Assembly (NCBI GenBank): GCA_958448165.1 | Contig: CAUDCW010000004.1 | Coordinates: 63,130-127,129 of the forward strand | DNA: 64,000 bases | Direction: 5' to 3' | DNA from: an uncultured Oscillospiraceae bacterium | GTDB taxonomy: Bacteria; Bacillota; Clostridia; Oscillospirales; Acutalibacteraceae | Shown: positions 26,136 to 54,489 of the stretch, piece by piece | How the letters are laid out: the number at the start of each line of letters is the position of its first letter | Position numbering within the stretch: the first letter of the stretch is position 1 | The notes under the pieces: generated by a model | What the model saw: the letters and a program-made list of their open reading frames with translations, nothing else | What the model was told of the DNA's origin: nothing | Databases searched by the model: none | Program-made: the position numbers and the translations under genes

Positions 26136-26885
26136 TTGGAAGTATTTTTAAAAAGCGATATAGGGCTTGTGAGGTCAACAAATCAGGACGCCTGCACAGG
26201 CGGAGTCTTTTCGGGTGATGCTGCTTGGGCTGTTGTATGTGACGGTATGGGCGGCGCAAACGGCGGCAACGTTGCAAGCTCTGTTGCGGTTAAAGAAATA
26301 TCACGCAGACTTAAAAGAGGATACAGGGACAGCTTAACCGACGATGAGATTGTTGACCTGCTCACCGAAATCGTTCAGAAAGCCAACAGCAAGCTCTATA
26401 AGATTCAGAAAAACGATCCCGAGCTTCGCGGTATGGGCACAACGGTTGAGCTTGTATTGGTAAAGGGGAATAAGCTTCATGTTGTTCATGCGGGCGACAG
26501 CCGTGTTTACAGTATTCGCGGCAGACGCATAAAGCAGCTTACAATTGACCATTCCGTTGTTCAGGAAATGGTCGAAAAGGGTGAGATCACCTCTGAACAG
26601 GCGATGGCTCATCCTAACAAAAACATCATCACCCGTGCTCTCGGCATTGTTCCCGAGATACATCTTGACTATATCGAGAGTGACTTTAAAGAGAACGATT
26701 ATGTTGTTATATGCACAGACGGGCTTTCAAACTACATAAAGCCTGCTGAATTTGTCAGAATGGCAAGAACAAACTACGGCGAGCAATACACCCAGGCGCT
26801 TGTGGACTCTGCCAAGGAGTTGGGCGGCAGTGATAACATCACGGTCGCAGTAATTGCAAATTCATCAGAAGTGGGAGAAGATTAA
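26136..26885 (+). CDS. stp: PP2C-family Ser/Thr protein phosphatase (Stp/PrpC)
   Basis: DIGLVRSTNQDA and VCDGMGG PP2C motifs. Precedes prkC. Confidence 0.9.
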   Translation: MEVFLKSDIGLVRSTNQDACTGGVFSGDAAWAVVCDGMGGANGGNVASSVAVKEISRRLKRGYRDSLTDDEIVDLLTEIVQKANSKLYKIQKNDPELRGMGTTVELVLVKGNKLHVVHAGDSRVYSIRGRRIKQLTIDHSVVQEMVEKGEITSEQAMAHPNKNIITRALGIVPEIHLDYIESDFKENDYVVICTDGLSNYIKPAEFVRMARTNYGEQYTQALVDSAKELGGSDNITVAVIANSSEVGED

Positions 26886-26888
26886 TCT

Positions 26889-28946
26889 ATGGATAAATAT
26901 TCGGGCAAAAAGCTTGACGGAAGATATGAAATACACGAGCTTATCGGCGCCGGCGGAATGGCGATGGTTTACCGTGCTTATGATACGCTTGACGACAGAA
27001 CGGTTGCGATAAAGATTTTGAAGGATGAGTTTTCTGCAAACGACGAATTCATCCGCAGATTTAAAAATGAATCCAAGGCAATTGCCGTGCTCAATCATCC
27101 TAACATTGTTAAGGTTTACGATGTCAGCTTCGGCGATGTTATACAGTATATCGTAATGGAATATATCGACGGCATCACGCTTAAGGAATATATTGAATTA
27201 CAGGACAATAAAATAAGCTGGAAAGAGGCAGTACTCTTTACAACACAGATTCTGCAGGCTCTTGAGCACGCACACAGCAAGGGCATTGTTCACCGTGACA
27301 TAAAGCCGCAGAACATTATGCTTTTGCAGGACGGCACAATAAAAGTAACGGATTTCGGCATTGCACGCTTCAGCAGCGTTGAAACAAGAACAATGACCGA
27401 CAAGGCGATAGGCTCTGTTCACTATATTGCGCCCGAGCAGGCTAAGGGTGAGCTGACCGACGGCAAAACCGACATATATTCGGTCGGCGTTATGCTGTAT
27501 GAAATGCTTGCAGGCAGACTTCCGTTTGAGGCAGACAACGCCGTGTCGGTTGCCATTATGCAGCTTCAGGAGGCACCCAAGCCGATAAAAGAGGTTAACC
27601 CCGACGTTCCCGACGGACTTGCCGAAATAACAATAAAGGCAATGCAGAAGGACCCGTCACTGCGCTATCAGAGTGCAAAGGAAATGCTTGATGATATCGA
27701 GCTTTTCAAGCAGAATCCGTCAATAGTATTTGAATATAAATATATGACGCCGAATTCCGGCGGCGACGACGACACCAAGGTGTTTGACGACAACGGCGGC
27801 TCTGTTGCCGACAATGCTTATAAGGACGAATACGGCAAATATGCCGCAGACGCAGAAAAAGCAAAGTCACCGGCCGGCTCGGTTATAGCAGGTATAATCT
27901 CTGCCTTTGTGCTTGTTGCCATAGTGTGCTGTATTCTCGGCGCATTCCGGGCGTGCCAGAGTCAGAACACAATTTCCGTTGATATACCGAACTTTGTCGG
28001 TATGAACTCCGACGAGGTTATCAACAACGACAAGTATGACTTTAAATTTGAAACAGTCAATTCGTTTGACCCGAACCAGGCTATCGGCACTATATTGAAG
28101 CAGTCGCCTGAGTCCGGCTCAAAGCAGATAAAAGAGGGCTCAACAATTACTCTTACGGTCAACAGCACAAGTACGGTTGTTTCTGTGCCGTATGTAAACG
28201 GCTATTCTGCGGATAACGCCCTCACAAAGATGAACGACAAGAACCTCAAAGCTCAGATTGTTTATGTTGAGGACGAGAACACCGCCGTTGATATGGTTCT
28301 TGACACATCGCCAAAGGCGGGTTCAGAGGTTGAGGTTGACTCTCCTATCAAGATTTTTGTCAGCCGTGAGCGCACAACAGACACTGTGACACTGCCGAAT
28401 GTTGTCGGTCAGTCGCTTGACGAAGCAAAATACACTCTCGAATCGCTCGGATTTGAGGTGGATTACGAATACAACGAAAAGGTTGATAAAGAGAAAGACA
28501 CTGTCATGGCACAGAGTCCGGGATATGACGTTGAATATAAGACGGGAGAAAAGGTAAAGCTTATTGTAGCAAAGGGTCTTGATAAGACAAGAACCTGCAC
28601 GCTCAATATTGACCTTCCGGCTGATGTCGAAAAAGAAGTATTTGTCCGCGTAACCGTTGACGGCGTTGTGGATGAAGAATACTCGCAGAACGTCATTCCG
28701 AAATATAACAGCACATATAAGGTTAAGCTTACCGCAGAAGGAACGGTTTATGTTCAGGTATCAATAAACGATAACCTTTACCGTGAATATCAGATTGACT
28801 TTACAAAGGGTGAGATTGTCAACTCGGCAAAATATGACTATGTACCCGATTCGACACTTCCGACCGAGGATGAGCCTGAAACCGAACCGGAGTCCGAAAC
28901 TCAGGAGGAAACCTGGTGGACGGACCCTGAGGATTATTCGTGGTAA
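26889..28946 (+). CDS. prkC: Ser/Thr protein kinase with extracellular PASTA repeats (PrkC/StkP-type)
   Basis: GAGGMAMVYRA, VAIKIL, HRDIKPQN, DFGIA, APEQ motifs; TM helix; three PASTA-like repeats; acidic C-terminus. Confidence 0.9.
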   Translation: MDKYSGKKLDGRYEIHELIGAGGMAMVYRAYDTLDDRTVAIKILKDEFSANDEFIRRFKNESKAIAVLNHPNIVKVYDVSFGDVIQYIVMEYIDGITLKEYIELQDNKISWKEAVLFTTQILQALEHAHSKGIVHRDIKPQNIMLLQDGTIKVTDFGIARFSSVETRTMTDKAIGSVHYIAPEQAKGELTDGKTDIYSVGVMLYEMLAGRLPFEADNAVSVAIMQLQEAPKPIKEVNPDVPDGLAEITIKAMQKDPSLRYQSAKEMLDDIELFKQNPSIVFEYKYMTPNSGGDDDTKVFDDNGGSVADNAYKDEYGKYAADAEKAKSPAGSVIAGIISAFVLVAIVCCILGAFRACQSQNTISVDIPNFVGMNSDEVINNDKYDFKFETVNSFDPNQAIGTILKQSPESGSKQIKEGSTITLTVNSTSTVVSVPYVNGYSADNALTKMNDKNLKAQIVYVEDENTAVDMVLDTSPKAGSEVEVDSPIKIFVSRERTTDTVTLPNVVGQSLDEAKYTLESLGFEVDYEYNEKVDKEKDTVMAQSPGYDVEYKTGEKVKLIVAKGLDKTRTCTLNIDLPADVEKEVFVRVTVDGVVDEEYSQNVIPKYNSTYKVKLTAEGTVYVQVSINDNLYREYQIDFTKGEIVNSAKYDYVPDSTLPTEDEPETEPESETQEETWWTDPEDYSW

Positions 28947-28966
28947 TTATATGACAATAATAAATC

Positions 28967-29863
28967 TTGGGTGATTTTGTGGTAACTGAAAAGGGCATTA
29001 TAACAAAATTAATCGGCGGCTTCTATTATGTGGAAGCCGCCGAAAAGGTATATGAGTGTAAGGCGAGAGGTGCGTTCAGAATCAAGGGCAGCTCTCCGTG
29101 TGTCGGAGATTATGTTGAAATCGGTGTTCCGGACGATGGCTACTGCGTTATAGAGAAGGTTTTGCCGAGGAAGAACAGTATTGTCCGTCCTGCCTTGGCG
29201 AATATCGACAGGCTTGTCATCGTTTCGTCAATAATCTCACCGTCGCCGAACACACTGATAATTGATAAAATGATTGCGACAGCCGTCAAGAAGAATATTG
29301 AACCTATGCTGGTGATAAGCAAAACGGATTTAGAATCCCCGGACGGGCTTTATAAAATCTATTCAAACTCAGGCATAAATACGTTTTGCTTTTCATCAAA
29401 GGACTTTAACGCTGATGAGCTGAAAAGTCGCATTTTAACAAACGGCATCACAGCCTTCACCGGCAATTCCGGCGTCGGCAAGTCAACTCTGCTCAACGCA
29501 ATGTTCCCGGGTATTGCCGCCGAAACGGGCGATATAAGCAAAAAGCTCGGCAGGGGACGCCACACAACAAGAACCGTTGAGCTTTATAAAACCGATTCGG
29601 GTTATGTTGCAGACACGCCGGGATTTTCTACCGTTGATCTGCAGAGATACGAAATAATAAAAAAAGACGAGCTGGCAGGCTGTTTTACTGAATTTGAGCC
29701 GTATCTTGACGACTGCCGTTTTACCTCCTGCTCACACACAAAGGAGATTGGCTGTGCTGTGCTTAGGGCGGTTGAAGAGGGCAAAATTGAAAAGTCAAGA
29801 CATCAGAGCTATGTGACAATGTATAACGAGGTCAAAGACCTTAAGGAATGGGAGTTGAAATGA
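28967..29863 (+). CDS. rsgA: Ribosome small-subunit-dependent GTPase A
   Basis: Non-ATG (TTG/GTG) start; G motifs VISKTD, GNSGVGKSTL; C-terminal zinc knuckle CRFTSCSHTKEIGC. Confidence 0.85.
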   Translation: MGDFVVTEKGIITKLIGGFYYVEAAEKVYECKARGAFRIKGSSPCVGDYVEIGVPDDGYCVIEKVLPRKNSIVRPALANIDRLVIVSSIISPSPNTLIIDKMIATAVKKNIEPMLVISKTDLESPDGLYKIYSNSGINTFCFSSKDFNADELKSRILTNGITAFTGNSGVGKSTLLNAMFPGIAAETGDISKKLGRGRHTTRTVELYKTDSGYVADTPGFSTVDLQRYEIIKKDELAGCFTEFEPYLDDCRFTSCSHTKEIGCAVLRAVEEGKIEKSRHQSYVTMYNEVKDLKEWELK

Positions 29864-30483
29864 ATCGCTGTGTAATAATTTCAGGAGCGCCGTCTGCTGA
29901 TATAGCTTTTTTTAAAAACCGCATATCCGATGATGATTTTGTCATCTGTGCCGACGCAGGCTATGTTTACGCCGTGAACGCAGGGATCACGCCTGATTTG
30001 ATTGTGGGTGATTTTGATTCCTCACCTGTACCGGATAACGATATTGAAACAATCATTCTGCCTGTGCATAAGGACGACACCGACACGATGTCTGCCGTGC
30101 GTGAGGGGATAAAAAGAGGCTGCGACCGTTTTGTTTTTCTTGCCGCAACAGGCGGCAGGGAGGACCACACCTTTGCTAACCTTTCTATTCTTCTTTATTT
30201 AAAGCACCGCAATTGTTCAGGTGAAATTCTTACGGATAAAACAAGGATTTTCATTGTCGAAAACGAGCAGGTAACCATTGAAAATCAGAAGGACAGGACC
30301 TTTTCAATTTTTCCTTTTGCCTGCAAAAGCTGCGGAGTTTCTCTTTCCGGCTTTTATTATCCTCTGTCTTGCTACACCTTAACGGCTGAATTTCCTCTTG
30401 GCGTAAGCAATGTTATAACATCGGACAAAGCGTCTGTAAATGTCAGCGGCGGAGCCGCAATAATCTGTATAACCGACCTGTGA
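29860..30483 (+). CDS. thiN: Thiamine diphosphokinase (thiamine pyrophosphokinase)
   Basis: MNRCVIISGAP...GDFDS...GGRED TPK motifs. Overlaps the rsgA stop. Confidence 0.8.
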   Translation: MNRCVIISGAPSADIAFFKNRISDDDFVICADAGYVYAVNAGITPDLIVGDFDSSPVPDNDIETIILPVHKDDTDTMSAVREGIKRGCDRFVFLAATGGREDHTFANLSILLYLKHRNCSGEILTDKTRIFIVENEQVTIENQKDRTFSIFPFACKSCGVSLSGFYYPLSCYTLTAEFPLGVSNVITSDKASVNVSGGAAIICITDL

Positions 30484-39535: not shown

Positions 39536-42274
39536 ATGAGAGAACTCAAAGAAAAAGAAGTGACCGCTGTTATTATTGCGGATGACGATAGTGTTATGAA
39601 GCTTCAAAAAACAATTTCATCTGTCGAAGCCTGCAGCACACCCGGCTGTGCGCTGACAAAAATATTTGTTATTGACGCTACATCAAAGGGCTTTACCTCG
39701 GCAGAATCAAAAGTGAATTATGAGATAATAAAAAAACATCAGGATGAGTTTACCGGTGCGGCTCTGAACAGGGCAGTGGATATGCTCTCGACTGAGTATG
39801 TAACCTTTTTTGACAGCGGTGATTTTGTTACTCCGGGATTTTTCGGTAAAGCCGCTCAGAATATAAAAAAGAACGGCGTCAGCTTTGCCTGCTGCAGCTC
39901 GGCTTGCTTTATTCCGTCGCTCGACCGTGAGGAGCAAAGCGCACTTAACAAAGCCGGCAGATTTTTAAAGGACGGCACCGTATCGGTTGAGGAAAACTGC
40001 AATTATATTCAGCCGAGCGCAAATGCCTGCCTTTTCCTTTCTGATGTGTTCAATACTCGTATGTTTAATTCCAACATCAAGTATGAGTACTATCAGGATT
40101 ATATGATGAAGCTTCTGCTTGATAACCCTGTTTACGGTGTTGTTGCAGACGAGCAGTATAACTTCTTTAAGCCGCAGGAGGACAACGCTCTTTATCACAT
40201 CAATGCGATTTACAAGGATTGGTATATTGACTCGATTGTTGATTTTCTCATTCCGTTAATGGAATACACACAGCAGCAAAAGGGTGAAATACCGCTTTTT
40301 ATCAGCTTTTATTTTATGTACTATTTTCAGGCGAGATTCCTGTCAAATATGAATAACCGCAACAAGCGTGCAATGACAGACAATGAGCTGAAAGCGTATT
40401 TTGTTATGGTTCGCCATGTGCTGAAAAACACAAATGACGGAATTATTCTGAACAAAAACAGGTTCCCTGCAATTATGTACAGCCTTGAGTGCGCTTTGAT
40501 GTTCAAGGAGCTTAAAAACGGAACATCTGAGCTTAACCGTGTTCTTGTCGAGGATAAAAACGACGCAATTCTCAGCATTAACGAAACAGACAGCAACGTG
40601 TTTGTATCCCGCCTGTCAAGTATGCATATAGGTATTCATGTGCTTGACTACAGCGACGGAAGGCTCTTGCTTGACGGCTCGTTCAGAAATGTGTTTATCG
40701 CCGAAAAGCTCAGTCTTTATGCGCAGTTCAACGGCAAGAAGTATTATCTTGAGAACAACGACCGTTATTCGCTGACTAAGTATTTCGGCATAAGTGCCTA
40801 CAAGAAGTTCACCTTCCATCTGGAGCTGCCGCTTAACAGCTCAAAACCGGAGCAGAAGCTTCGCTTCTTTGCGCAGGTCGGCTCAACGCTTGTGCCGCTC
40901 AATTTTTCATTCCTGCATCACTGGGCTAAGCTTGCTGTTAAACCAAAGGACAGCTATTGGTGCTTTAATCAGTACATCGCAAAACACAATGCATATGAAA
41001 AGGCGATTGTCATTGAAAGGGCAAGCCGTCTGAAAAAGCTTAAATCCGAGCTTAAGTATCTTCCGCAGCTTTTCTGCGAGAGCAAAAAGTATTTTCTGTT
41101 CCGCCTTTTATATGATGTTACCATTCCTTTCTTCAAAAACAAGAAGATATGGCTTATGTATGATAAGCTTTACAAGGGCGGCGACAGCTGTGAATATCTG
41201 TACCGTGCAACGGCAAAGAACAACGACGGAATAACAAAGTATTATATCATCGACAAAAACACTCCCGACTATAAGTCGCTTAAGGCAGACGGTTATAAGC
41301 CTGTTGCGACCCGTTCGCTCAAGCACCGCCTTGCGTTTTTACACTCTGATATTGTGCTTATCACAAATTCAAACCTTTTCCCGTTCAACGGTTACAATAT
41401 GGACCGCTCACGCTTCATCAGGGGACTTTGCAACTTCGGCTCAATGTGCCTGCAGCACGGCCTTACTGTGCAGAAATGCGCAATGGCACAGCAAAGAATT
41501 ATTGATAATACGAAGATGTATTTTATTGCGTCAAAGTATGAAAAGGGCAATCTGGAGCATCACGCATACAACTACAAGGGCTTTGACATTATCAGGCTCA
41601 CGGGTATAGGAAGATATGACGGATTGAAGAACAATGACCGCAAGCAGATCCTGCTTTCTCCGACATGGCGAATGTATAACGCAATGCCGGTTACATCAAG
41701 CGAGGGCGTTCAGCGTGAATATAATCCCGAATTCAAGCATACCGTTTATTACAAGATATATAATGACCTGATCAACAACGAAAAGCTTTTAAGCTGTGCA
41801 AAGAAAAACGGATATAAGATAAAATACCTGCTGCACCCGATTTTAAGCGCCCAGCTAAAGGACTTTACACCGGGCGACGGGGTAGAGGTAATAGCCTCTG
41901 TCGGGAACCTTAGCTATGAAAAAATCCTTACCGAGTCAAGCCTTATGGTGACTGACTACTCAGGCGTTCAGTTTGACTTTGCCTATATGAAAAAGCCGCT
42001 CGTGTATTTTCACCCGTCACAGCTTCCGGCGCACTATGACGACGGCTGCTTCTTCTATGACACGATGGGCTTCGGCGAAATCTGCACCGAAAGCGAGCAG
42101 CTTGTGAATACGCTTTGCGCTTACATGGAAAACGGCTGCAAAATGAGCCAAAAGTATATTGACAGGGTAGATGATTTTTATAACTATCACGACCACAACA
42201 ACTGCGAAAGAATCTACAAGGAAATTCTTTCTTTCCAGAAGCAGGTTGACCGTGATAAGATGAGAAAAAAATAA
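39536..42274 (+). CDS. Bifunctional teichoic-acid-type protein: N-terminal GT2-like glycosyltransferase domain + C-terminal CDP-glycerol glycerophosphotransferase (TagB/TagF) domain
   Basis: 912 aa. N-terminal VTAVIIADDD...FFDSGD (GT-A like). C-terminal TagF-like block (IWLMYDKLYKGGDSCEYLY ... HPSQLPAHYDDGCFFYD). Confidence 0.7.
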   Translation: MRELKEKEVTAVIIADDDSVMKLQKTISSVEACSTPGCALTKIFVIDATSKGFTSAESKVNYEIIKKHQDEFTGAALNRAVDMLSTEYVTFFDSGDFVTPGFFGKAAQNIKKNGVSFACCSSACFIPSLDREEQSALNKAGRFLKDGTVSVEENCNYIQPSANACLFLSDVFNTRMFNSNIKYEYYQDYMMKLLLDNPVYGVVADEQYNFFKPQEDNALYHINAIYKDWYIDSIVDFLIPLMEYTQQQKGEIPLFISFYFMYYFQARFLSNMNNRNKRAMTDNELKAYFVMVRHVLKNTNDGIILNKNRFPAIMYSLECALMFKELKNGTSELNRVLVEDKNDAILSINETDSNVFVSRLSSMHIGIHVLDYSDGRLLLDGSFRNVFIAEKLSLYAQFNGKKYYLENNDRYSLTKYFGISAYKKFTFHLELPLNSSKPEQKLRFFAQVGSTLVPLNFSFLHHWAKLAVKPKDSYWCFNQYIAKHNAYEKAIVIERASRLKKLKSELKYLPQLFCESKKYFLFRLLYDVTIPFFKNKKIWLMYDKLYKGGDSCEYLYRATAKNNDGITKYYIIDKNTPDYKSLKADGYKPVATRSLKHRLAFLHSDIVLITNSNLFPFNGYNMDRSRFIRGLCNFGSMCLQHGLTVQKCAMAQQRIIDNTKMYFIASKYEKGNLEHHAYNYKGFDIIRLTGIGRYDGLKNNDRKQILLSPTWRMYNAMPVTSSEGVQREYNPEFKHTVYYKIYNDLINNEKLLSCAKKNGYKIKYLLHPILSAQLKDFTPGDGVEVIASVGNLSYEKILTESSLMVTDYSGVQFDFAYMKKPLVYFHPSQLPAHYDDGCFFYDTMGFGEICTESEQLVNTLCAYMENGCKMSQKYIDRVDDFYNYHDHNNCERIYKEILSFQKQVDRDKMRKK

Positions 42275-42373: not shown

Positions 42374-42733
42374 ATGGAGGTATATCTTATGGTTCAGCAG
42401 AGAAGTATTGCACTTTATATCGTATTGTCAATTGTTACATGCGGCATCTTCGGACTTGTTTGGTTTGTTATGATTACAAACGACCTGAGAGCTCTTTCAG
42501 GCGACCAGTCATCAACTTCCGGCGGCGTTGCATTGCTGTTGACAATTGTAACTTGCGGTATTTATGGCCTTTATTGGGCTTATAAATGCGGTGAGACTCT
42601 TGACAACATCAAGACATCTCGCGGTATTCCTGCAAGCAACGGCGGTGTGCTGTATCTCATTCTTTACTTGTTTGCAGGCATTATTACATATGCACTTGTT
42701 CAGAATGAAATTAACAAGCTCGTTCAGCAGTAA
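42374..42733 (+). CDS. Small membrane protein with duplicated IVTCGI(F/Y)GL(V/Y)W motif (DUF4234-like)
   Basis: Two copies of SIVTCGIFGLVW and TIVTCGIYGLYW. The start may be the internal MVQQR ATG at 42389. Confidence 0.6.
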   Translation: MEVYLMVQQRSIALYIVLSIVTCGIFGLVWFVMITNDLRALSGDQSSTSGGVALLLTIVTCGIYGLYWAYKCGETLDNIKTSRGIPASNGGVLYLILYLFAGIITYALVQNEINKLVQQ

Positions 42734-42739
42734 TTTTAT

Positions 42740-43132
42740 TTGATGAAGAAGAGAGCAAAAAATGTTCTGATTCTGTTTGGAATCATTATTGCGGTCGGCA
42801 TAATATACATTATCTTCAATTCTCTGACGGGAATAGGAATACCGTGTGTGTTCCACCTTATAACCGGACTTAACTGTCCGGGATGCGGAGTGTCAAGGAT
42901 GATTATTTCAATAATTAATCTTGATTTTGAAGCTGCCTTTCGCTATAATGCTGCATTATTTGTTCTTTCGCCCGTGTTCTTGATTCTGGCGATTACAATT
43001 ATCGTAAGATATATAAGAACGGGTTCACAAAAGCTAAGTCGAGGGCAGTCAGCGGTGGTTATCACGCTGATTGTCCTTTTGCTTTTGTTTGGAATAGTCA
43101 GAAATCTTCCTTTTGTTGATTTTATCAATTAA
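42740..43132 (+). CDS. Small membrane protein with CPGCG motif (DUF2752-like)
   Basis: GLNCPGCGVSRM between TM helices; 6-bp gap after the preceding gene. Confidence 0.6.
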   Translation: MMKKRAKNVLILFGIIIAVGIIYIIFNSLTGIGIPCVFHLITGLNCPGCGVSRMIISIINLDFEAAFRYNAALFVLSPVFLILAITIIVRYIRTGSQKLSRGQSAVVITLIVLLLLFGIVRNLPFVDFIN

Positions 43133-43257: not shown

Positions 43258-43800
43258 ATGAAAGCAACAGGAATTGTTAGGCGCATTGACGACCTCGGCA
43301 GAGTTGTAATACCCAAGGAAATCCGACGTACTCTCAGAATAAAAGAGGGTGCGCCGCTTGAAATTTACACCGACGGCAACGGAGAGGTCATCTTCAAAAA
43401 ATATCTGCCGATGGGTGAGCTTGTCAATCTTGCGGTTCTTTACACAGAGGTGTTATACAAGGTTTCGGGTATGCCGACGATAATAAGCGACAGCGAGCAT
43501 ATTGTTGCCGCATCCGGTGTGCCTAAGCGTGACTATCTTGAACGCAGGGTGTCGCCTGTGATTGATGAATTTATGGAGATGCGCCGCAGCTATGCGGCTC
43601 ACGATACCCAGATCAACGATATCCACCCGGTTGAGGGGCTTGACGGTGTAGCGGCGGTAATGTATCCGATAATTTCTTCGGGCGATGTTATGGGCAGCGT
43701 TATAATGCTGTTCGGCGACAGCAAAAATATGCCGACAGAAACAGAAATAAAGCTTGTGCAATCTGCCGCTGTTTTTCTCGGAAAGCAGATGGAGGAATAA
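43258..43800 (+). CDS. spoVT: Stage V sporulation protein T (AbrB-type N-domain + GAF-like C-domain)
   Basis: MKATGIVRRIDDLGRVVIPKEIRRTLRIKEGAPLEIYTD is a SpoVT/AbrB swapped-hairpin domain; length 180 aa as in SpoVT. Confidence 0.85.
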   Translation: MKATGIVRRIDDLGRVVIPKEIRRTLRIKEGAPLEIYTDGNGEVIFKKYLPMGELVNLAVLYTEVLYKVSGMPTIISDSEHIVAASGVPKRDYLERRVSPVIDEFMEMRRSYAAHDTQINDIHPVEGLDGVAAVMYPIISSGDVMGSVIMLFGDSKNMPTETEIKLVQSAAVFLGKQMEE

Positions 43801-43955
43801 TTGCAGTCATCGCGTTATGGCTTTGCCGGAACGGTAAGACCATAACGCGTTTATTATAATTTACAAAAATGTTATAACTTAGAGAGCCTTAAAACTTGAA
43901 TTCACAACTGCATTTATGTTATAATACTTACGATAATGTGAAAGAAGGTGTTTTA

Positions 43956-45716
43956 ATGCCTGAACTATGCTATGGATGTATGAAAGAAAGCAGCGGCGAA
44001 AAAATCTGCCCCAACTGCGGCTTTGATAAAAATACACAGCAGAAAGCGCCCTTTTTGCCATTGGGCAAAAGGCTTCAGGATAGGTACATTGTCGGAAAAA
44101 TACTCGTTAACAGCACTGATTCTGCTACATATATCGGATATGACGATAAGAACGGTACTGTTGTAAACATTCGCGAGTTCCTTCCGGCAGGTCTTTGCAC
44201 AAGGGATTCGAGCAATGATTCGCTTGTGCCGAACAACGGCAGTGATGCTATATATTCAGAATATCTTGAAGAATTCAAGAATATTTACACAAAGGTCAAA
44301 AAATACAGCGAGCTTACCGCTATCACAAATATCCTCGATATTTTTGAAGAGAATAACACGGTTTATGCCATTGAAGAGGTTGACGATGTTATTCCGTTTG
44401 AGGAGTATATTGAGCGCAGCGGCGATAATATGGAGTGGGACACGGCAAGACCGTTGTTTATGCCGCTTTTGTCTGCTCTTTCACAGCTCAACAGCGACGG
44501 CCTTTATCATCTCGGTGTTGCGCCGGACAACCTTGTGGTGACATCGGCAGGCAAGATAAGACTTGTTAATTTTGCAATTAACGAGGTCCGTCAGAAGGGC
44601 AACAAGGTTGCAGACGTGCTTTACTCCGGCTGCAGTGCGCCTGAGCAGTATGACGAGGACGGCGTTATTGATGAGCAGACCGAAATTTACGGCTTCACGG
44701 CAACTCTTTTTTACGCTCTTGCAGGTAAGCTCCCTGCTGACGCAGTAAAAAGAAAAGAGGACGGCAGACTTCTTATCAGCACCAATGTTGTAAAAAAGCT
44801 TCCTCCTCATGTTGTTTCCGCACTTGCAAATGGTTTGCAGGTTGACAAGGAGCAGAGAATTCCCGATTTTGAAACAATGCGGGCACAGCTCAGCGCAGCT
44901 CCGACAGTTAAGGCGATACAGGAAGAAATAGCAAGGCCTGCTGTTGTTCCTATGATAGAAGAGGATGTTGAAGAGAAAAAGGGAGTTTCAAACTTCACAT
45001 GGGGTGTTATAGCCGCAATAATTGCTCTTGTTGTGTTTTCTGCGGCAGGCTTCTGGTGGATTTCAACAAACCCGTTCGAGGGCTTGTTCCAACCGGGCGA
45101 AGCACCGACCGACCCCACTTCTGCCACCTCAATAACCGAGCCTGAGGGCGAGGACTTCACATATCCGCGCGACAGCGAGTTCTTCCGTGTGCCGAGCTTT
45201 ATCGGCTTAAAGCTTGAGGACGCTCAGAAAAAGGCGGAGGAAAGCGACGGCGAATACACTGTTATCAGAACAATCGACGATGCGTTCAGCGATACAGTTG
45301 CCGAGGGCTTTATATGTGAGCAGACGCCGGAGGGCAGAACAACAATCAATCGCGGCAAGGACGGCGTTACGATAGCCGTTACGATAAGTAAAGGCTCAAA
45401 GCAGAGAGTTCTCCCGAAAATTGACAATATGACATATGAGCAGGCTCTCAAAGCTCTTACAAATGAGCATCTCCTCACCGATGTCGTTATGGAGTTCAGC
45501 GACGATATTCCGGAAAACACGGTTATTTCCTATAAGGATAAAAAAGAGGGCGACAAGGTTGAATACGGCTCGTCTGTTACTGTTGTGGTAAGTCTGGGAC
45601 CTGAACCGACTTCTTCAGATTCTTCTGCATCGAGCAACACATCAAGCGAATTCACATACAGCGATGCAATTTCATTTGAGGATTCAAGCAGTTCAAGCAG
45701 TTCTGATTCCGAATAA
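43956..45716 (+). CDS. Membrane protein: N-terminal zinc ribbon + degenerate (pseudo)kinase domain + TM + two extracellular PASTA domains + Ser-rich tail
   Basis: GAAGGTG RBS then MPELCYGCMKESSGEKICPNCGFD. Kinase-like fold with HLGVAPDN in place of HRDxKxxN, NFA in place of DFG, NIRE in place of VAIK, no Gly loop, APE retained (CSAPEQ). TM VIAAIIALVVFSAAGFWWI; PASTA-like FRVPSFIGLKLEDAQKKA and LPKIDNMTYEQALKAL. Confidence 0.7.
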   Translation: MPELCYGCMKESSGEKICPNCGFDKNTQQKAPFLPLGKRLQDRYIVGKILVNSTDSATYIGYDDKNGTVVNIREFLPAGLCTRDSSNDSLVPNNGSDAIYSEYLEEFKNIYTKVKKYSELTAITNILDIFEENNTVYAIEEVDDVIPFEEYIERSGDNMEWDTARPLFMPLLSALSQLNSDGLYHLGVAPDNLVVTSAGKIRLVNFAINEVRQKGNKVADVLYSGCSAPEQYDEDGVIDEQTEIYGFTATLFYALAGKLPADAVKRKEDGRLLISTNVVKKLPPHVVSALANGLQVDKEQRIPDFETMRAQLSAAPTVKAIQEEIARPAVVPMIEEDVEEKKGVSNFTWGVIAAIIALVVFSAAGFWWISTNPFEGLFQPGEAPTDPTSATSITEPEGEDFTYPRDSEFFRVPSFIGLKLEDAQKKAEESDGEYTVIRTIDDAFSDTVAEGFICEQTPEGRTTINRGKDGVTIAVTISKGSKQRVLPKIDNMTYEQALKALTNEHLLTDVVMEFSDDIPENTVISYKDKKEGDKVEYGSSVTVVVSLGPEPTSSDSSASSNTSSEFTYSDAISFEDSSSSSSSDSE

Positions 45717-45738
45717 CAAAAATAATATCAATATATCA

Positions 45739-45780
45739 AGAGACGGAGTCTTTTCCGTCTCTTTGTATTATTGTATATTT
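45739..45780 (+). terminator. Rho-independent terminator after the PASTA pseudokinase gene
   Basis: AGAGACGGAGTCTTTTCCGTCTCT hairpin followed by TTGTATTATTGTATATTT. Confidence 0.7.
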
Positions 45781-46014: not shown

Positions 46015-46710
46015 TTATTTCTTGTTTGCCTTGTCCTCGCACACCTTGATTAAATTGAACAGCGAGGAAAAGTAGAGCGGATATTTCTTGGCGATGATTT
46101 CGGGGGAAAGGCTAGGAACTCTGTCGATAGGCACGCCGTCAAAGCCGTCACAGCCGTTGCCGCCTGCAAGAGAGCCTGCGTATGCCTCGGCAAGGCTTTG
46201 CAAAGCGCTGAAAACACCGCCTGCTACGTTTTCATCGACCGAGAACACGCCTTTGGGGTTTTTGTTGCCGCTGCTGTATATTATCCTGAACATCTTATAA
46301 ACCGAAAGCATCAGATAATCCGAAACCTCGGTTGTCAGTCCCTTGCTGCCTGTTTCTTCAAGCAGGTCAAATATCAGCTCGATTGAATTGATGATAAGAC
46401 GTTTGTTAAGGACAGACAGCAAATTGCTTTTTACAACATTCGGCTTTATTTCGGGCGAGGAAATTTCCGGTAAATCATTTATCGCAATTTTTGCGCCGTT
46501 GCGCTGTACGGTTCTGCCGAGCAAATAGTCCGTTGACACGTCATAATATTCGGCAACCTTGATTACAAAGTCAAGTCCGCATTCTCTTATTCCTTTTTCA
46601 TAGTGGGATAAAAGAGCCTGTGAAACGCCGAGGTCAGCCGCAACCTGCTTCTGGCTCAAGCCCTTTTCTTTGCGCAGCAAAGAGATTATTCTTGAAAAGT
46701 CCTTGTTCAT
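46015..46710 (-). CDS. XRE-family HTH transcriptional regulator with ~165-aa C-terminal domain of unknown function
   Basis: MNKDFSRIISLLRKEKGLSQKQVAADLGVSQALLSHYEKG HTH_3 motif; start taken at MNKDF. Confidence 0.75.
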   Translation of the reverse strand: MNKDFSRIISLLRKEKGLSQKQVAADLGVSQALLSHYEKGIRECGLDFVIKVAEYYDVSTDYLLGRTVQRNGAKIAINDLPEISSPEIKPNVVKSNLLSVLNKRLIINSIELIFDLLEETGSKGLTTEVSDYLMLSVYKMFRIIYSSGNKNPKGVFSVDENVAGGVFSALQSLAEAYAGSLAGGNGCDGFDGVPIDRVPSLSPEIIAKKYPLYFSSLFNLIKVCEDKANKK

Positions 46711-46874
46711 ACCAACACCTGAATTTAAAAAATAACAAAATGTTATACAGATTAAAATTTTAAAACAAAACAATTACAACGCTGTAATCAATATACGAAT
46801 AGTATATAATAAAATCAACAATTTGTAAAGTAGGCGTTGTTCGTCATTATTACAGTATTTTAGAGGAGTTATTT

Positions 46875-47507
46875 ATGAAAACTTACCAAATTCACCTTAT
46901 TCGACACGGTTTGACCGACGAAAACGAAAAAGGAAAGTACATAGGCTCAACCGATGTTCCCTTGTCGCAAAAGGGAATAAAGCTTTTGAAAAAATACTCT
47001 GAGGAGTACGATTATCCCGGTGCGCCCATTGTGTATTCAAGTCCGCTTCAGCGCTGCGTTCAGACAGCAGGCATACTTTATCCGGCGATTACCCCAAAAA
47101 TAATCGGCGGTCTTGCTGAATGCAGCTTCGGCGACTGGGAGGGAAAAACAGTTGCAGATCTGGCAAAGGAGGACAATTTTGCAAAATGGCTGGCTAACTC
47201 AAAGAATGAATTCACTCCGCCGAACGGTGAAAGCGGCGAGGCGTTCCTGCGCAGAATCTGTCGTGCGTTTGAAAAAATTGTCAGCGACCTTGTTGCATCG
47301 GGAGAAACAAGCGCAGTCGTTATAACTCACGGCGGCGTGATAATGAATTTACTGTCTGTTTACGGCTTGCCGCACGCAGACCCGTATGATTGGCGAATGG
47401 ACAACGGCTTTGGCTATTCACTCAGAATAAACACTCTTTTGTGGCAGCGTGACAAGGTGTGCGAGGTTTATGCTCTTGCACCCTATGAAAAAACAGAGGA
47501 AAATTGA
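46875..47507 (+). CDS. Histidine phosphatase family protein (phosphoglycerate-mutase-like)
   Basis: IHLIRHGLTDEN RHG catalytic motif. Confidence 0.8.
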   Translation: MKTYQIHLIRHGLTDENEKGKYIGSTDVPLSQKGIKLLKKYSEEYDYPGAPIVYSSPLQRCVQTAGILYPAITPKIIGGLAECSFGDWEGKTVADLAKEDNFAKWLANSKNEFTPPNGESGEAFLRRICRAFEKIVSDLVASGETSAVVITHGGVIMNLLSVYGLPHADPYDWRMDNGFGYSLRINTLLWQRDKVCEVYALAPYEKTEEN

Positions 47508-52455: not shown

Positions 52456-52540
52456 GCGGGCGTGGCGGAATTGGCAGACGCGCTAGATTTAGGTTCTAGT
52501 GTCAACCGATGTGCAGGTTCAAGTCCTGTCGCCCGCACCA
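52456..52540 (+). tRNA. tRNA-Leu(TAG), class II with long variable arm, CCA encoded
   Basis: GCGGGCG acceptor paired with CGCCCGC-ACCA; D-arm GGCGGAATTGGCAGACGC; anticodon loop TTTAGGT (anticodon TAG); long variable arm; T-arm GGTTCAAGTCC. Own promoter (TGTATAAT at ~52414-52422). Confidence 0.85.
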
Positions 52541-52544
52541 AATA

Positions 52545-52599
52545 AGAACGAAAGTTATGATACCATTGGTATTGCAACTTTCGTTCTTTTTCTTTTTTC
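52545..52599 (+). terminator. Rho-independent terminator after tRNA-Leu
   Basis: AAGAACGAAAGTT...AACTTTCGTTCTT hairpin followed by TTTTCTTTTTT. Confidence 0.75.
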
Positions 52600-53006
52600 A
52601 AAAATGCCTGTAACACAAGGCTTTTTGGCTGTGGGGCATAAAAGATAAGTTTCAGTGTGGGAAATTTTCTCCGCTCTATGATCCTTGCAAAACTGAAAAA
52701 AAGACGGAATTATGAACCCGAATACCAAAATGAAACTTTTCTCAAAATAGATTAGTTTCATTGTATAGAAAAGTTTCACTGTCAAAAAGAATACACAAAG
52801 ACAACAGAATAACCTTCCGATTCAAGAACGGAAGGGACATCGAGGTTGGGGTTGAATAAACCCCGCCTTTTTTGTTTGGGTGGAAAAATTCATATTTATG
52901 TGATATAATCTGTTCGATAAATAAGAATTTGTCTAACTGATAGCAACAGCGAGTTGCTTGTAAACTTGAACATCCTGCATTACAATTATAGTGAGGTGAT
53001 GATTCT

Positions 53007-53771
53007 ATGGAAACAAAGGATATTATAGTAGAGTTGAGAACTAAAAACGGGCTTTCACAAGAAGCTCTTGCAGAAAAAATATTCGTAACAAGACAGGCGG
53101 TTTCTCGTTGGGAAACCGGAGAAACGGTGCCAAATACTGAAACACTAAAATTGTTATCAAAACTGTTTGATGTATCTATCAATACGCTTCTCGGTTCTCC
53201 AAGACAGCTTATCTGCCAATGCTGCGGTATGCCTTTGGAAGATTCTAATATCAGCAAGGAAACCGATGGTTTCTTTAATGAAGAATATTGCAAATGGTGC
53301 TATGCAGACGGAGAATATATGTATCATAATATTGATGACCTGATTGATGTTTGTGTAAAGCATATGGCAAATGAGGAACATCCGGAGGAAGAAGTTCGTT
53401 CTTATTTACAGGAAACTCTACCGAAATTAGATTATTGGAAGAGATACAAAGAGCTTGGCGGTGATGGAGCTTTTGAAGAATTCAAAAAACTCTTGATTAC
53501 GGAAATCAATGAATTGAACATTGAAGGAATGCCAAAGCTTCAAAAGCTTAATGCCTTAGTTGGCGGATATGTCAATCTTGAATACAGACTTCCAAACGGA
53601 AAAAGTGTGAAGTTTTTAGATGACGGAGTAACCTATTTAGGGAATCAGTTGGAATGCGAATTCGGAGAAAACAGATGTTTTGGCATTGTCTGCAATATGG
53701 ATTTTATTCTTATTGCAACCTATGAAGAAAATGGCGAAAATCCAGAGTTGGTTATTTATAAAAAGAGATAG
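53007..53771 (+). CDS. XRE-family HTH regulator fused to a Cys-rich (zinc-ribbon-like) domain and C-terminal domain of unknown function
   Basis: LRTKNGLSQEALAEKIFVTRQAVSRWETGE HTH_3 motif; CQCCGMPLED...CKWCYADGEY. Confidence 0.7.
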   Translation: METKDIIVELRTKNGLSQEALAEKIFVTRQAVSRWETGETVPNTETLKLLSKLFDVSINTLLGSPRQLICQCCGMPLEDSNISKETDGFFNEEYCKWCYADGEYMYHNIDDLIDVCVKHMANEEHPEEEVRSYLQETLPKLDYWKRYKELGGDGAFEEFKKLLITEINELNIEGMPKLQKLNALVGGYVNLEYRLPNGKSVKFLDDGVTYLGNQLECEFGENRCFGIVCNMDFILIATYEENGENPELVIYKKR

Positions 53772-54053
53772 TCAAATTCCAATTTTTCGGTCGGTTGCAT
53801 ACACTTCTTGGGTTGCATTTCAATGCAACTTTGCAACCGCTTGCAACCCGTACCAAAATATGCGTTATAATTCAAATCGAGGGTAGTTTTTACTGCCCTC
53901 GTTTTTTTTGCGTTTGCCCGGAATGGGCAGTAACTTGGTGGTGGGAGTCCACTACAGGCTTGGCAGTAGGAACTGTTAGCTGAGGGCAAGTGCGTCCATC
54001 GTGAGGTGGAGTATGAAATAAGCCTAAAGCAAACTCTCGGTCTGACGAACAGA

Positions 54054-54375
54054 AATCACATATAAGGCATATGCAGAGCGGACGAGCTTGGCTCATTTGG
54101 GTGATATTGTATTGTTCCGTTATGTTGTTCGACAATACTTTTTACAATAGCTAATCCTAAGCCGGCACCGCCGACTTTTTTAGTCATTTGCTTGTTTTCA
54201 CGGTAGAAAGGTTAAAAAATATGCGCAGAGCGTCAGGGGAGATGCCAATTCCTGTATCGGATACGATAATCAAAAGTTGGTTGTTTGCCTTTTTAGTTTT
54301 GATATGTACTTTGCCATTTTCTGTATTATATTTAATTGCATTTTGAATAAGGTTTGATACAGCGTGTTTAAGCAT
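54054..54375 (-). pseudogene. Histidine kinase C-terminal remnant (HATPase domain only, frameshifted)
   Basis: 54375-54184 encodes N/G1 boxes (NLIQNAIKYN...IIVSDTGIGISPDALRIFF) and ends in TGA; an overlapping ATG in another frame continues as MTKKVGGAGLGLAIVKSIVEQHNGTI (G2 box). No HisKA or sensor domain upstream (stop immediately 5'). Confidence 0.6.
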
Positions 54376-54489
54376 TTCATCTTCTATTTATCTGTTTTCA
54401 AATTAAAACGCTTAAATATATTGCAATTTAATCATATGTATGTTATGCTTTTATTCAGAACGAACGATTTGAATGAATGGGGTGATTAG

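What the first reader, a model, noticed from the sequence alone, without database searches (positions are those of the whole stretch)
43956..45716. Second PASTA-domain membrane protein with N-terminal zinc ribbon and a catalytically dead kinase domain (pseudokinase), next to spoVT
Besides the canonical prkC at 26889, this gene encodes a Cys4 zinc ribbon (CYGC...CPNC) and a protein-kinase-like domain. Every catalytic signature in that domain is degenerate. There is no glycine loop. NIRE replaces VAIK. HLGVAPDN replaces HRDxKxxN (catalytic Asp changed to Gly). NFA replaces DFG. The APE helix (CSAPEQ) is retained. A single TM, two PASTA-like repeats and a Ser-rich tail follow. A PASTA-bearing pseudokinase paralogue could act as a muropeptide-binding scaffold or decoy that modulates PrkC signalling during sporulation or germination. 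I do not recognise a characterised family with this exact architecture.
Basis: partly seen in the sequence, partly recalled or inferred. Interest (0 to 1): 0.65.

Follow-up and report, generated by a model that had tools for sequence, protein, structure and literature searches.

The report
PASTA-bearing zinc-ribbon membrane pseudokinase family
This gene encodes a membrane receptor that looks like a cell-wall-sensing protein kinase but has lost its catalytic residues; it belongs to a large, conserved, unstudied family in gut Clostridia (Ruminococcus bromii and relatives) that often sits just after the true cell-wall-sensing kinase PrkC and probably tunes its signalling.

Summary
Window 43956-45716 (+) encodes a 586-aa protein with these parts: a Cys4 zinc ribbon, a kinase-fold domain, one TM helix, two PASTA domains and a Ser-rich tail.

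The kinase fold is confident (AF2 pLDDT >90; best PDB match is PpkA). All three catalytic residues are lost (VAIK-Lys to Arg, HRD-Asp to Gly, DFG-Asp to Asn) and there is no Gly-rich loop.

The loss is a family trait, not local decay. Among 134 representatives at 50% identity clustering or below, 133 lack the HRD-Asp, and all 183 closer members do too. dN/dS is about 0.05 in every folded domain.

- The kinase-like domain is not a decayed PrkC copy. It derives from a separate clade of zinc-ribbon-headed, PpkA-like kinases with an 'IKEYxP' motif, which has active members.
- The spoVT adjacency is lineage-specific (6 of 69 species). The gene has its own conserved sigma-A-type promoter.

The recurrent contexts are a position directly downstream of stp-prkC-rsgA-tpk (15 of 44 species) and upstream of an XRE/His_Phos_1 pair (34 of 56).

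Most likely function: a non-catalytic PASTA co-receptor or scaffold in the PrkC pathway. This is inferred, not shown.

No curated family or paper describes it. I rate it a new variant of a known kind.

The parts
43956..45716 (+). Whole gene: zinc-ribbon / pseudokinase / TM / 2x PASTA receptor-like protein (586 aa plus stop)
43968..44018 (+). Cys4 zinc ribbon (C5, C8, C18, C21), cytoplasmic
   Evidence: Cys conserved in 122-133 of 134 representatives; invariant in A2; pLDDT 85-92; also present in active relatives
44085..44900 (+). Pseudokinase domain (aa 44-315). Catalytic positions: R73 for the VAIK-Lys, G187 for the HRD-Asp, N205 for the DFG-Asp. Structural core kept: H185, E230 (APE), the alpha-F acidic position 243 (Glu in this protein, Asp in most of the family) and R301. 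A beta3-alphaC insert is shared with PpkA.
44880..44936 (+). Conserved juxtamembrane linear motif RAQLSAAPTVKAIQEEIAR (aa 309-327; S313, T317). It runs from the last helix of the C-lobe (aa 305-313) into the AF2-disordered segment 316-344.
   Evidence: Of 183 members: L312 in 182, S313 in 182, T317 in 175, E324 in 182; pLDDT <50 for 316-344; dN/dS 0.05. The role as a phospho-acceptor or docking site is inference.
44991..45065 (+). Single transmembrane helix (aa 346-370), with KK on the N-terminal (cytoplasmic) side
   Evidence: sequence
45180..45593 (+). Two extracellular PASTA domains (aa 409-478 and 483-546)
   Evidence: Pfam PASTA 67.9 bits, 2 stretches; profile hits to S. aureus Stk1 and M. 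tuberculosis PknB PASTA structures; AF2
45600..45713 (+). Ser-rich, low-complexity extracellular tail
   Evidence: pLDDT <50; variable length and sequence; dN/dS 0.2-0.4
43896..43925 (+). Sigma-A-type promoter-like site: TTGAAT, 18-nt spacer, TG-n-TATAAT. A conserved 5' UTR and RBS follow, up to 43955.
   Evidence: both hexamers and the UTR are invariant in 6 species while the spacer varies
43811..43848 (+). Hairpin followed by a U-rich stretch, between spoVT and the target (terminator-like)
   Evidence: dG -25.1 kcal/mol, z -4.7; other species carry different hairpins at the same place
45738..45763 (+). Terminator-like hairpin after the target
26136..30483 (+). stp (PP2C), prkC, rsgA and tpk cluster, the likely signalling partner. 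It lies 13.5 kb upstream here and directly adjacent in other species.
   Evidence: NF033483 548.7 bits; Stp1 256 bits; synteny
43258..43800 (+). SpoVT-like AbrB-family regulator; the adjacency is lineage-specific
   Evidence: 6 of 69 species
46015..46713 (-). XRE-family HTH protein (232 aa, with an uncharacterised C-terminal half), convergent with the target
   Evidence: syntenic in 34 of 56 species
46875..47507 (+). His_Phos_1 phosphatase (cobC-like, below cut-off), divergent from the XRE gene
   Evidence: synteny

Best explanation
The gene encodes a receptor-like transmembrane pseudokinase.

Outside the cell, two PASTA domains most likely bind peptidoglycan-derived ligands or sites of nascent wall, as PASTA domains of PrkC, PknB and StkP do. 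Inside the cell, a zinc-ribbon-capped kinase fold cannot transfer phosphate. It keeps an intact structural core, the N-lobe Arg/Asp pair used for back-to-back dimers in PknB-type kinases, and a conserved Ser/Thr-containing juxtamembrane motif.

I propose it works as a non-catalytic co-receptor or scaffold of the Stp-PrkC pathway. It would be recruited to the same wall cues and then act in one of three ways:
- pair with PrkC allosterically;
- be phosphorylated by PrkC on the juxtamembrane motif and recruit effectors;
- compete with PrkC for ligand or substrates.
Any of these would tune PrkC output in cell-wall growth and division.

Shown here: the architecture, the fold, the family-wide loss of catalytic residues, purifying selection, the origin from a zinc-ribbon PpkA-like kinase clade, the recurrent position next to the prkC operon, and its own vegetative-type promoter.

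Inferred: ligand binding, lack of ATP binding or activity, and any physical or functional link with PrkC.
For: Architecture and fold.

Catalytic loss:
- In this protein.
- Across the family, at the HRD-Asp position: Gly 108, Ala 22 and Asp 1 of 134 representatives; Gly 103, Ala 80 and no Asp in 183 closer members.
- The beta3 Lys is Arg in 100 of 134. The DFG-Asp is Gly in 84 of 134. Only one representative, a tandem active kinase, keeps K/D/D.

Functional constraint:
- dN/dS is 0.04-0.06 for the ribbon, pseudokinase, juxtamembrane and PASTA parts.
- 2885 clusters (50% identity) reach E<=1e-30.
- The structural core is kept: H185, E230, position 243 (the alpha-F Asp) and R301 are invariant or nearly so.

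Link to PrkC:
- The gene lies directly downstream of stp-prkC-rsgA(-tpk) in 15 of 44 species, including R. bromii ATCC 27255.
- Three species show stp-prkC-rsgA-(tpk)-pseudokinase-xre-hisphos. This suggests an ancestral block.

Other points:
- R43 and D128, the equivalents of the PknB N-lobe dimer pair, are conserved, and the window's PrkC has the same pair.
- The juxtamembrane motif QLSxAxTxKAIQEEI is conserved within a disordered segment.

Precedents:
- The tail of the M. tuberculosis MviN pseudokinase is phosphorylated by PknB and recruits FhaA (PMC12599244).
- C. difficile CD2148 is an atypical, possibly pseudo-kinase. [quoted passage not shown]
Against: - There is no direct evidence of any interaction with PrkC.
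- Adjacency to the prkC operon is seen in only about a third of species. It could be inherited gene order: leuB is co-syntenic too, which shows that functionally unrelated genes persist in this block.
- The kinase-like domain belongs to a different Hanks clade than PrkC, so N-lobe heterodimerisation cannot be assumed.
- More distant family members sit in unrelated contexts.
- Nucleotide binding cannot be excluded. The beta3 Arg is conserved, as in DYD pseudokinases, which are predicted to bind ATP.
- The PASTA ligand is unknown.
Confidence: 0.5

Rival explanations
1. It is a PrkC-independent cell-envelope scaffold. The PASTA domains localise the protein to nascent peptidoglycan, and the pseudokinase and zinc ribbon recruit division, elongation or sporulation proteins, with no cross-talk with PrkC.
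For: - The kinase-like domain is from another clade than PrkC.
- Two thirds of species do not have the gene next to prkC.
- It has its own promoter and terminator.
- EssB/YukC shows that membrane pseudokinases in Firmicutes can be purely structural parts of a machine (PMC12599244).
Against: - The recurrent position directly after the prkC operon.
- The conserved Ser/Thr juxtamembrane motif.
- The precedents of MviN and CD2148, both coupled to the PASTA kinase.
Confidence: 0.2
2. It is a non-canonical enzyme. The fold still binds a nucleotide and catalyses phosphotransfer or another reaction (such as AMPylation) using migrated residues, or it acts as a nucleotide-gated switch.
For: - A beta3 Arg (100 of 134) followed by an invariant Glu.
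- Asn192 is retained in this protein and in 50 of 134 representatives. DFG-Asp is retained in 25 of 134.
- DYD pseudokinases with a beta3 Arg are predicted to bind ATP.
Against: - No acidic residue at the catalytic-base position in 133 of 134 representatives.
- Most members also lack the metal-binding Asp and the Gly-rich loop.
- No family-specific invariant Lys, Asp or Glu appears that could rebuild an active site. E74, R83 and P77 are shared with active relatives.
Confidence: 0.1
3. It is the sensor of a local regulatory module with the neighbouring XRE-family regulator and His_Phos_1 phosphatase. For example, it might sequester or release the regulator in response to wall signals.
For: An XRE gene on the minus strand plus His_Phos_1 lies within 3 kb downstream in 34 of 56 species, down to 42% protein identity.
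Against: - The orientation is convergent, with terminators in between, so the genes are not co-transcribed.
- leuB is co-syntenic as well, which suggests inherited gene order.
- R. bromii-type loci lack the pair within the 8 kb examined downstream.
- No known mechanism links these domains.
Confidence: 0.1
4. It is a sporulation/germination-specific decoy tied to SpoVT.
For: - It is adjacent to a SpoVT-like gene in the window and in five or six close relatives.
- The hosts include spore-formers such as R. bromii (my own knowledge).
Against: - The adjacency occurs in 6 of 69 species only.
- A hairpin separates the genes.
- The conserved promoter matches the sigma-A consensus with an extended -10.
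- I saw no sigma-E, -F or -G-like -10 element by eye.
Confidence: 0.07

Closest known systems
PASTA Ser/Thr kinases PrkC / PknB / StkP / Stk1 (NCBIfam NF033483; 'KAPD' family of the bacterial STK atlas)
   Same: The topology is the same: a cytoplasmic kinase fold, a disordered juxtamembrane segment, one TM helix and extracellular PASTA repeats. The PASTA part matches the Stk1 and PknB PASTA structures. The gene is often next to the stp-prkC operon.
   Different: - No catalytic Lys, Asp or Asp, and no Gly-rich loop.
- It scores 100.5 bits against the 450-bit cut-off.
- The kinase-like domain is closer to PpkA and the zinc-ribbon kinases than to PknB or PrkC.
- It has an N-terminal Cys4 ribbon and a beta3-alphaC insert.
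- It has only two PASTA repeats.
Zinc-ribbon-headed 'IKE[YF]xP' Hanks kinases of Clostridia, and the T6SS kinase PpkA (PDB 5HNV, 5X1Q-T)
   Same: - They share the motifs I[KR]E[FY]xP...R, EENGTAY, G[YFC][AS]PxEQY and TD[IV]Y.
- They share the beta3-alphaC insert.
- Active Clostridial members such as P0184 and P0137 carry the same CxxC...CxxC ribbon, and the alignment runs end to end.
   Different: - The relatives keep GxGGFG, the Lys, HRD and DFG, and are presumably active.
- PpkA has no PASTA domain. From my own knowledge, it has a periplasmic vWA-type domain and acts in T6SS activation.
- P0184, the only active relative whose domains were scanned in full, has no PASTA domain. P0137 showed none at E<=0.001.
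C. difficile CD2148 (atypical STK, possible pseudokinase)
   Same: It is a membrane-anchored second Hanks-type protein in a Clostridial species. It lacks the HRD-Asp and the catalytic-loop Asn. [quoted passage not shown] It is the best functional analogue.
   Different: CD2148 has no PASTA domains. Its substituted residues are numbered S134 and S139, which implies no 40-aa zinc-ribbon leader and no beta3-alphaC insert (inference). Sequence homology could not be tested here.
M. tuberculosis MviN (MurJ) pseudokinase domain / ActPs3 family
   Same: - It is a membrane protein with an intracellular pseudokinase degraded in all three motifs and an extracellular carbohydrate-binding domain.
- It forms a back-to-back dimer.
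- Its tail is phosphorylated by the PASTA kinase PknB and recruits FhaA to regulate peptidoglycan synthesis (PMC12599244).
- This is a model for how the conserved S313/T317 motif could work.
   Different: It is actinobacterial and fused to a lipid II flippase. It has an activation-loop deletion, no PASTA domain and no zinc ribbon. It is an unrelated branch of the kinase tree.
EssB/YukC (T7SSb membrane pseudokinase of Firmicutes)
   Same: It is a single-pass membrane pseudokinase in Firmicutes with all catalytic motifs degraded, and it acts as a scaffold.
   Different: It is part of a secretion machine. It has no PASTA domain and no zinc ribbon. No T7SS genes lie near the target.

Membership tests
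Stk1/PknB/PrkC PASTA Ser/Thr kinase (NF033483) | Full-length score at or above the curated cut-off (450 bits) | tested here: not met
   100.5 bits. The window's real PrkC scores 548.7 bits.
Stk1/PknB/PrkC PASTA Ser/Thr kinase (NF033483) | Catalytic VAIK-Lys, HRD-Asp, DFG-Asp and a Gly-rich loop | tested here: not met
   R73, G187 and N205, and no GxGxxG. The loss is family-wide.
Stk1/PknB/PrkC PASTA Ser/Thr kinase (NF033483) | A single TM helix followed by extracellular PASTA repeats | tested here: met
   TM 346-370 and two PASTA domains
Hanks-type protein kinase fold (Pfam PF00069) | Profile match above the gathering score, and a bilobal kinase fold | tested here: met
   37.9 bits against 31.7. 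AF2 pLDDT >90. Foldseek top hits are PpkA, PknB and PknA, with TM-score up to 0.79.
Bacterial pseudokinase (kinase fold lacking at least one of VAIK-Lys, HRD-Asp, DFG-Asp; definition of the bSTK atlas) | Substitution of catalytic-triad residues, conserved across the family | tested here: met
   All three are substituted in the target. The HRD-Asp is absent in 133 of 134 representatives and in all 183 closer members.
Bacterial pseudokinase (kinase fold lacking at least one of VAIK-Lys, HRD-Asp, DFG-Asp; definition of the bSTK atlas) | Absence of phosphotransfer activity or ATP binding | not testable with these tools
   This needs biochemistry (thermal shift, radiolabel assay).
Published bacterial pseudokinase families ActPs1-3, GLW, CP1, DYD, DLHK | Family motifs, taxa and architecture: GLW in place of HRD (Proteobacteria); DYD in place of DFG with HRD kept; a COG3899 fusion (CP1); actinobacterial families with characteristic deletions (ActPs); HRD-Asp retained (DLHK) | tested here: not met
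   The target has H-L-G, N-F-A, PASTA domains and a Clostridial host. I compared it with the published descriptions only.
Zinc-ribbon / PpkA-like 'IKEYxP' Hanks kinase clade | An N-terminal Cys4 ribbon, I[KR]E[FY]xP after beta3, a beta3-alphaC insert, and Gx[AS]PxEQY | tested here: met
   End-to-end alignment with P0184 domain 2 (157 bits, E 3e-49) and with P0137. The profile hits PpkA at E 3e-44.
Zinc-ribbon / PpkA-like 'IKEYxP' Hanks kinase clade | Catalytic competence (K, HRD, DFG) | tested here: not met
C. difficile CD2148-type atypical kinase | Sequence homology to CD2148, and dependence on PrkC | not tested
The residue numbering in PMC9674922 argues against a shared ribbon or insert.
SpoVT-linked sporulation gene | Conserved adjacency to, or co-transcription with, spoVT | tested here: not met
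   6 of 69 species. A hairpin and a separate promoter lie between the genes.

The most novel reading that the evidence does not exclude
Gut Oscillospirales, including the keystone starch degrader Ruminococcus bromii, may run a two-receptor wall-sensing system. It would resemble eukaryotic kinase/pseudokinase receptor pairs such as HER2-HER3 or plant BAK1-type co-receptors. A catalytically dead, zinc-ribbon-capped PASTA receptor would heterodimerise with, or be phosphorylated by, the active PASTA kinase PrkC, and would set its ligand sensitivity or route its output through a conserved phospho-Ser/Thr juxtamembrane docking motif. This would be the first PASTA co-receptor pseudokinase and an eighth conserved bacterial pseudokinase family, independently derived from an active zinc-ribbon kinase clade.
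Probability: 0.3. Interest if true: 0.75.

Novelty: new variant of a known kind. Interest (0 to 1): 0.6.

Why it matters
PASTA kinases are central regulators of cell-wall synthesis, division, beta-lactam tolerance and spore germination in Gram-positive bacteria. How their signalling is tuned is still open.

Bacterial pseudokinases are a young field. The 2025 atlas and review list seven conserved families. None is Clostridial, and none carries PASTA domains.

A large, strongly constrained family combines the PASTA sensor with a dead kinase, and it often sits next to prkC. That gives a directly testable candidate for a non-catalytic co-receptor or modulator of PrkC in abundant gut anaerobes.

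It also shows that a PASTA ectodomain was joined to a kinase lineage other than PknB/PrkC. Public annotation misses the kinase fold (NCBI: 'PASTA domain-containing protein') or assumes activity (JGI: 'serine/threonine protein kinase').

Tried and rejected
Searches that failed or gave nothing:
- The search for related loci with the wide alignment A2 failed because no stretch was conserved enough. I repeated it with the closer alignment A3.
- The Foldseek afdb50 library was not available, so I have no UniProt-level taxonomic survey.
- The listing of cluster members on 10 distant members gave almost no names or taxa.
- A literature search for 'zinc ribbon' + PASTA + kinase + Clostridia gave 0 papers. 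PpkA + 5HNV also gave 0. What I state about PpkA's biology and about the PknB R10/D76/L33 dimer interface rests on my own knowledge plus PDB entry titles.
- I could not obtain the CD2148 sequence or representatives of the published pseudokinase families, so those comparisons rely on published descriptions only.
- AF2 coordinates are not exposed. I therefore could not examine how the ribbon packs on the N-lobe or whether the ATP pocket is occluded.

Readings I rejected:
- A decaying pseudogene. dN/dS is about 0.05 and there are thousands of homologues.
- An upstream TTG start at 43896. It overlaps the conserved promoter, and the homologues start at the ATG.
- A simple PrkC duplicate.
- An operon with spoVT.

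A context check on a distant member (P0154) showed unrelated neighbours. The synteny argument therefore applies only to the Acutalibacteraceae / Ruminococcus / Oscillospiraceae group.
Full report

The ORF 43896..45716 (+) is listed. The functional start is the ATG at 43956. A GAAAGAAGGTG ribosome-binding site lies 6 nt upstream, and the homologues in alignment A1 begin M[PS]ELC or a close variant. The product is 586 aa.

Pfam finds the following:
- Pkinase just above its gathering score (37.9 bits against 31.7, residues 119-300).
- Two PASTA repeats (67.9 bits, E 7e-19).
- Only a faint zinc-ribbon hint.

NCBIfam's PASTA-kinase equivalog gives 100.5 bits against a 450-bit cut-off. The gene at 26889-28946 scores 548.7 bits and is preceded by an Stp1-type PP2C phosphatase (256 bits).

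**2. Are the catalytic motifs really gone?**

Three independent alignments agree: BLASTP against the window's PrkC, MAFFT alignments with homologues, and BLASTP against an active zinc-ribbon kinase.
- GIGGFGITY becomes VNSTDSATY.
- A(V/I)K becomes NIR.
- HRDIAPDN becomes HLGVAPDN.
- DFG becomes NFA.
- The APE Glu, the alpha-F acidic position (243; Glu in this protein, Asp in most members) and the subdomain-XI Arg (R301) are kept.

An AlphaFold2 model built on a 36-sequence alignment is confident. pLDDT is above 90 through residues 1-315, and the mean is 83.6. It shows a bilobal kinase fold, a disordered juxtamembrane segment (316-344), a TM helix (346-370), a disordered linker (379-402), two PASTA folds (409-478 and 483-546) and a disordered Ser-rich tail.

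Foldseek against the PDB returns only protein kinases. PpkA comes first (E 3e-19, TM-score 0.79), followed by PknB and PknA.

**3. One-off decay or a family?**

It is a family.
- The word-indexed search finds 2201 homologues. The top 120 are all 540-600 aa with 42% identity or more over at least 93% of the query.
- The exhaustive HMMER search of 1.84 billion cluster representatives gives 2885 clusters at E<=1e-30. The best 150 (E<=1e-62, down to 28% identity) are mostly full-length matches that start at the zinc ribbon.

In 134 such representatives:
- The four Cys are present in 122-133.
- The beta3 Lys position is Arg in 100 and Lys in 16.
- The HRD-Asp position is Gly in 108, Ala in 22 and Asp in 1.
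- The DFG-Asp position is Gly in 84, Asp in 25 and Asn in 13.
- A GxGxxG-like loop appears in 1 of the 134. The script's count of 2 of 135 includes the PrkC reference row.
- The single K/D/D sequence is a tandem of two active kinases.

In 183 closer members the HRD-Asp position is Gly in 103 and Ala in 80, never Asp.

Against an 88%-identical orthologue, dN/dS is 0.04 for the ribbon, 0.057 for the pseudokinase, 0.052 for the juxtamembrane segment and 0.047 for the PASTA region. The tail gives 0.20. The protein is under strong purifying selection as a non-catalytic kinase fold.

**4. Where does it come from?**

A profile of the family hits the solved kinase domain of PpkA at E 3.4e-44. That is far better than Stk1, StkP or PknB kinase domains (1e-26 to 1e-17). 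The PASTA part hits the Stk1 and PknB PASTA structures.

The shared features are:
- the motif I(K/R)E(Y/F)xP...R right after beta3;
- an insert of about 20 residues before helix C;
- EENGTAY;
- Gx(A/S)PxEQY.

Among the distant hits are active Clostridial kinases (P0184, P0137). They carry the same N-terminal CxxC...CxxC ribbon and the same motifs, with GQGGFGITY, IKE, HRD and DFG intact. The target's residues 5-320 align with them without large gaps at 157 and 130 bits. Its own PrkC kinase domain gives 66.6 bits.

So the pseudokinase is not a decayed PrkC duplicate. It is a catalytically dead branch of a zinc-ribbon-headed, PpkA-like Hanks clade that carries a PASTA ectodomain. The ribbon is an ancestral trait of that clade. 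Variants exist in which the same ribbon-pseudokinase module is fused to RCC1 repeats or BspA-type LRRs instead of PASTA.

**5. Who has it, and what surrounds it?**

A scan of one genome per GTDB species returned 247 loci, of which 80 were kept. They come from Acutalibacteraceae, Ruminococcus (including R. bromii ATCC 27255 at 44% identity), Pseudoruminococcus massiliensis and other Oscillospiraceae/Ruminococcaceae MAGs. The closest is an Acutalibacteraceae MAG (91%) and then Ruminococcus sp. zg-924 (88%).

I mapped the window's neighbouring proteins onto these loci by tblastn.
- SpoVT lies directly upstream in only 6 of 69 loci, all at 75% identity or more.
- The stp-prkC-rsgA(-tpk) cluster lies directly upstream on the same strand in 15 of 44 loci, with gaps of 138-1969 bp.
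- A convergent XRE-family gene plus a divergent His_Phos_1 gene lie within 3 kb downstream in 34 of 56 loci.
- Three loci (L059, L079, L086) have both arrangements. This suggests an ancestral order stp-prkC-rsgA-(tpk)-pseudokinase-xre-hisphos-leuB.

In the window the prkC cluster ends at 30483, 13.5 kb upstream on the same strand. A more distant member (P0154) has unrelated neighbours.

**6. Transcription**

- Between spoVT and the target lies a strong hairpin followed by a U-rich stretch (dG -25.1 kcal/mol, z -4.7).
- 30 nt upstream of the ATG lies TTGAAT, an 18-nt spacer, then TG-n-TATAAT.
- In six species whose synonymous sites are largely saturated, both hexamers, the 5' UTR and the RBS are invariant while the spacer varies.
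- A terminator-like hairpin follows the gene.

The gene thus looks monocistronic, with a vegetative sigma-A-type promoter. Nothing here supports sporulation-specific expression, although consensus scans cannot exclude it.

**7. How it most likely works**

Shown:
- The topology is N-in/C-out, with KK before the TM helix, so the PASTA domains are outside.
- The catalytic machinery is lost.
- The structural spine and salt-bridge residues are retained.
- R43 and D128 are conserved, and PrkC carries the same pair. From my own knowledge they correspond to the PknB R10/D76 back-to-back dimer pair.
- A conserved linear motif QLS(A/V)A(P/H)T(V/A)KAIQEEI runs from the last C-lobe helix into the disordered juxtamembrane segment. 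Of 183 members, S313 is present in 182 and T317 in 175.

Inferred: the protein is a non-catalytic PASTA co-receptor or scaffold of the Stp-PrkC pathway.

Two characterised systems give precedents.
- The tail of the M. tuberculosis MviN pseudokinase is phosphorylated by PknB and recruits the FHA protein FhaA to restrain peptidoglycan synthesis. The domain forms back-to-back dimers (PMC12599244).
- C. difficile CD2148 lacks the HRD-Asp and the catalytic-loop Asn. It is phosphorylated only when PrkC is present, and it modulates PrkC-dependent CwlA phosphorylation and cell separation (PMC9674922).

My confidence:
- That it is a PASTA receptor pseudokinase: about 0.9.
- That it acts through PrkC: about 0.5.
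- Rivals: a PrkC-independent scaffold 0.2, a non-canonical enzyme or nucleotide switch 0.1, a module with the XRE/His_Phos_1 pair 0.1, a SpoVT-linked sporulation decoy 0.07.

**8. Comparison with what is known**

The 2025 atlas of bacterial Ser/Thr kinases and the accompanying review define seven conserved pseudokinase families: ActPs1-3, GLW, CP1, DYD and DLHK. By their published motifs, taxa and architectures none matches this one, which is H-x-G/A, (G/N)-F-x, Clostridial, and has a ribbon and PASTA domains.

In the atlas, PASTA domains are tied to the canonical KAPD family. The text searches for pseudokinase with PASTA, and for zinc ribbon with PASTA kinases, found no description of such a protein. 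Public sources name the protein 'PASTA domain-containing protein' or 'serine/threonine protein kinase'.

I therefore class it as a new variant of a known kind, a bacterial membrane pseudokinase. The pairing of a dead kinase with the PASTA sensor is the new element.

**9. Verdict**

The gene is real, is conserved and belongs to a large uncharacterised family. The sporulation/spoVT angle should be dropped and the 'PrkC paralogue' wording corrected. The PrkC-modulator hypothesis gains circumstantial synteny support but remains untested. Interest is 0.6.

Noticed in passing
window 43861-43955: The 95 nt upstream of the target are phylogenetically footprinted in six species. Besides the -35 and -10 hexamers, an upstream block TTTACAAAA(A/T)TGTTATAA is invariant. 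It repeats the ATGTTATAA of the -10 region about 48 nt further upstream. This could be an operator or a second promoter.
   Followed up: partly
window 46015-46713 (-) and 46875-47507 (+): An XRE-family HTH protein has an uncharacterised C-terminal half of about 160 aa. It is divergent from a His_Phos_1 phosphatase that is cobC-like but below cut-off (116 bits against 163). The pair travels with the pseudokinase in 34 of 56 species, and leuB is often next to it.
   Followed up: partly
window 30480-31794: Directly after the stp-prkC-rsgA-tpk cluster lie two genes. One encodes a 247-aa membrane protein with no Pfam match. The other encodes a 168-aa protein with an N-terminal Zn_ribbon_11 (24.7 bits) and a C-terminal TM helix. 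It is another small zinc-ribbon membrane protein at the tail of the prkC cluster.
   Followed up: no
proteins P0184, P0137 (active) and P0136, P0139: The zinc-ribbon kinase module is shuffled. P0184 is a tandem of two active ribbon-kinase units, and P0137 has four kinase stretches. P0136 and P0139 carry the pseudokinase version (50% identical to the target) behind RCC1 repeats. P0139 has BspA-type LRRs in place of PASTA.
   Followed up: partly
window 42374-43132: A pair of small membrane proteins, DUF4234 (126 bits) and DUF2752 (67 bits), lies upstream of spoVT. The pair is conserved with spoVT in the close relatives L009-L011.
   Followed up: no
window 39536-42274: A 912-aa fusion of a GT2 glycosyltransferase with a CDP-glycerol glycerophosphotransferase (TagF-like). 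It suggests teichoic-acid-type polymer synthesis near the cell-wall signalling genes.
   Followed up: no
window 52456-64000: After tRNA-Leu (52456-52540) the GC content drops from about 0.45-0.48 to 0.37-0.41. The region holds an XRE-like gene (53007-53771), a 596-aa membrane protein (55572-57362), and an open reading frame of at least 2144 aa that starts near 57.57 kb and runs off the window end. The frame looks NRPS-like by eye. The region may be a horizontally acquired island.
   Followed up: partly
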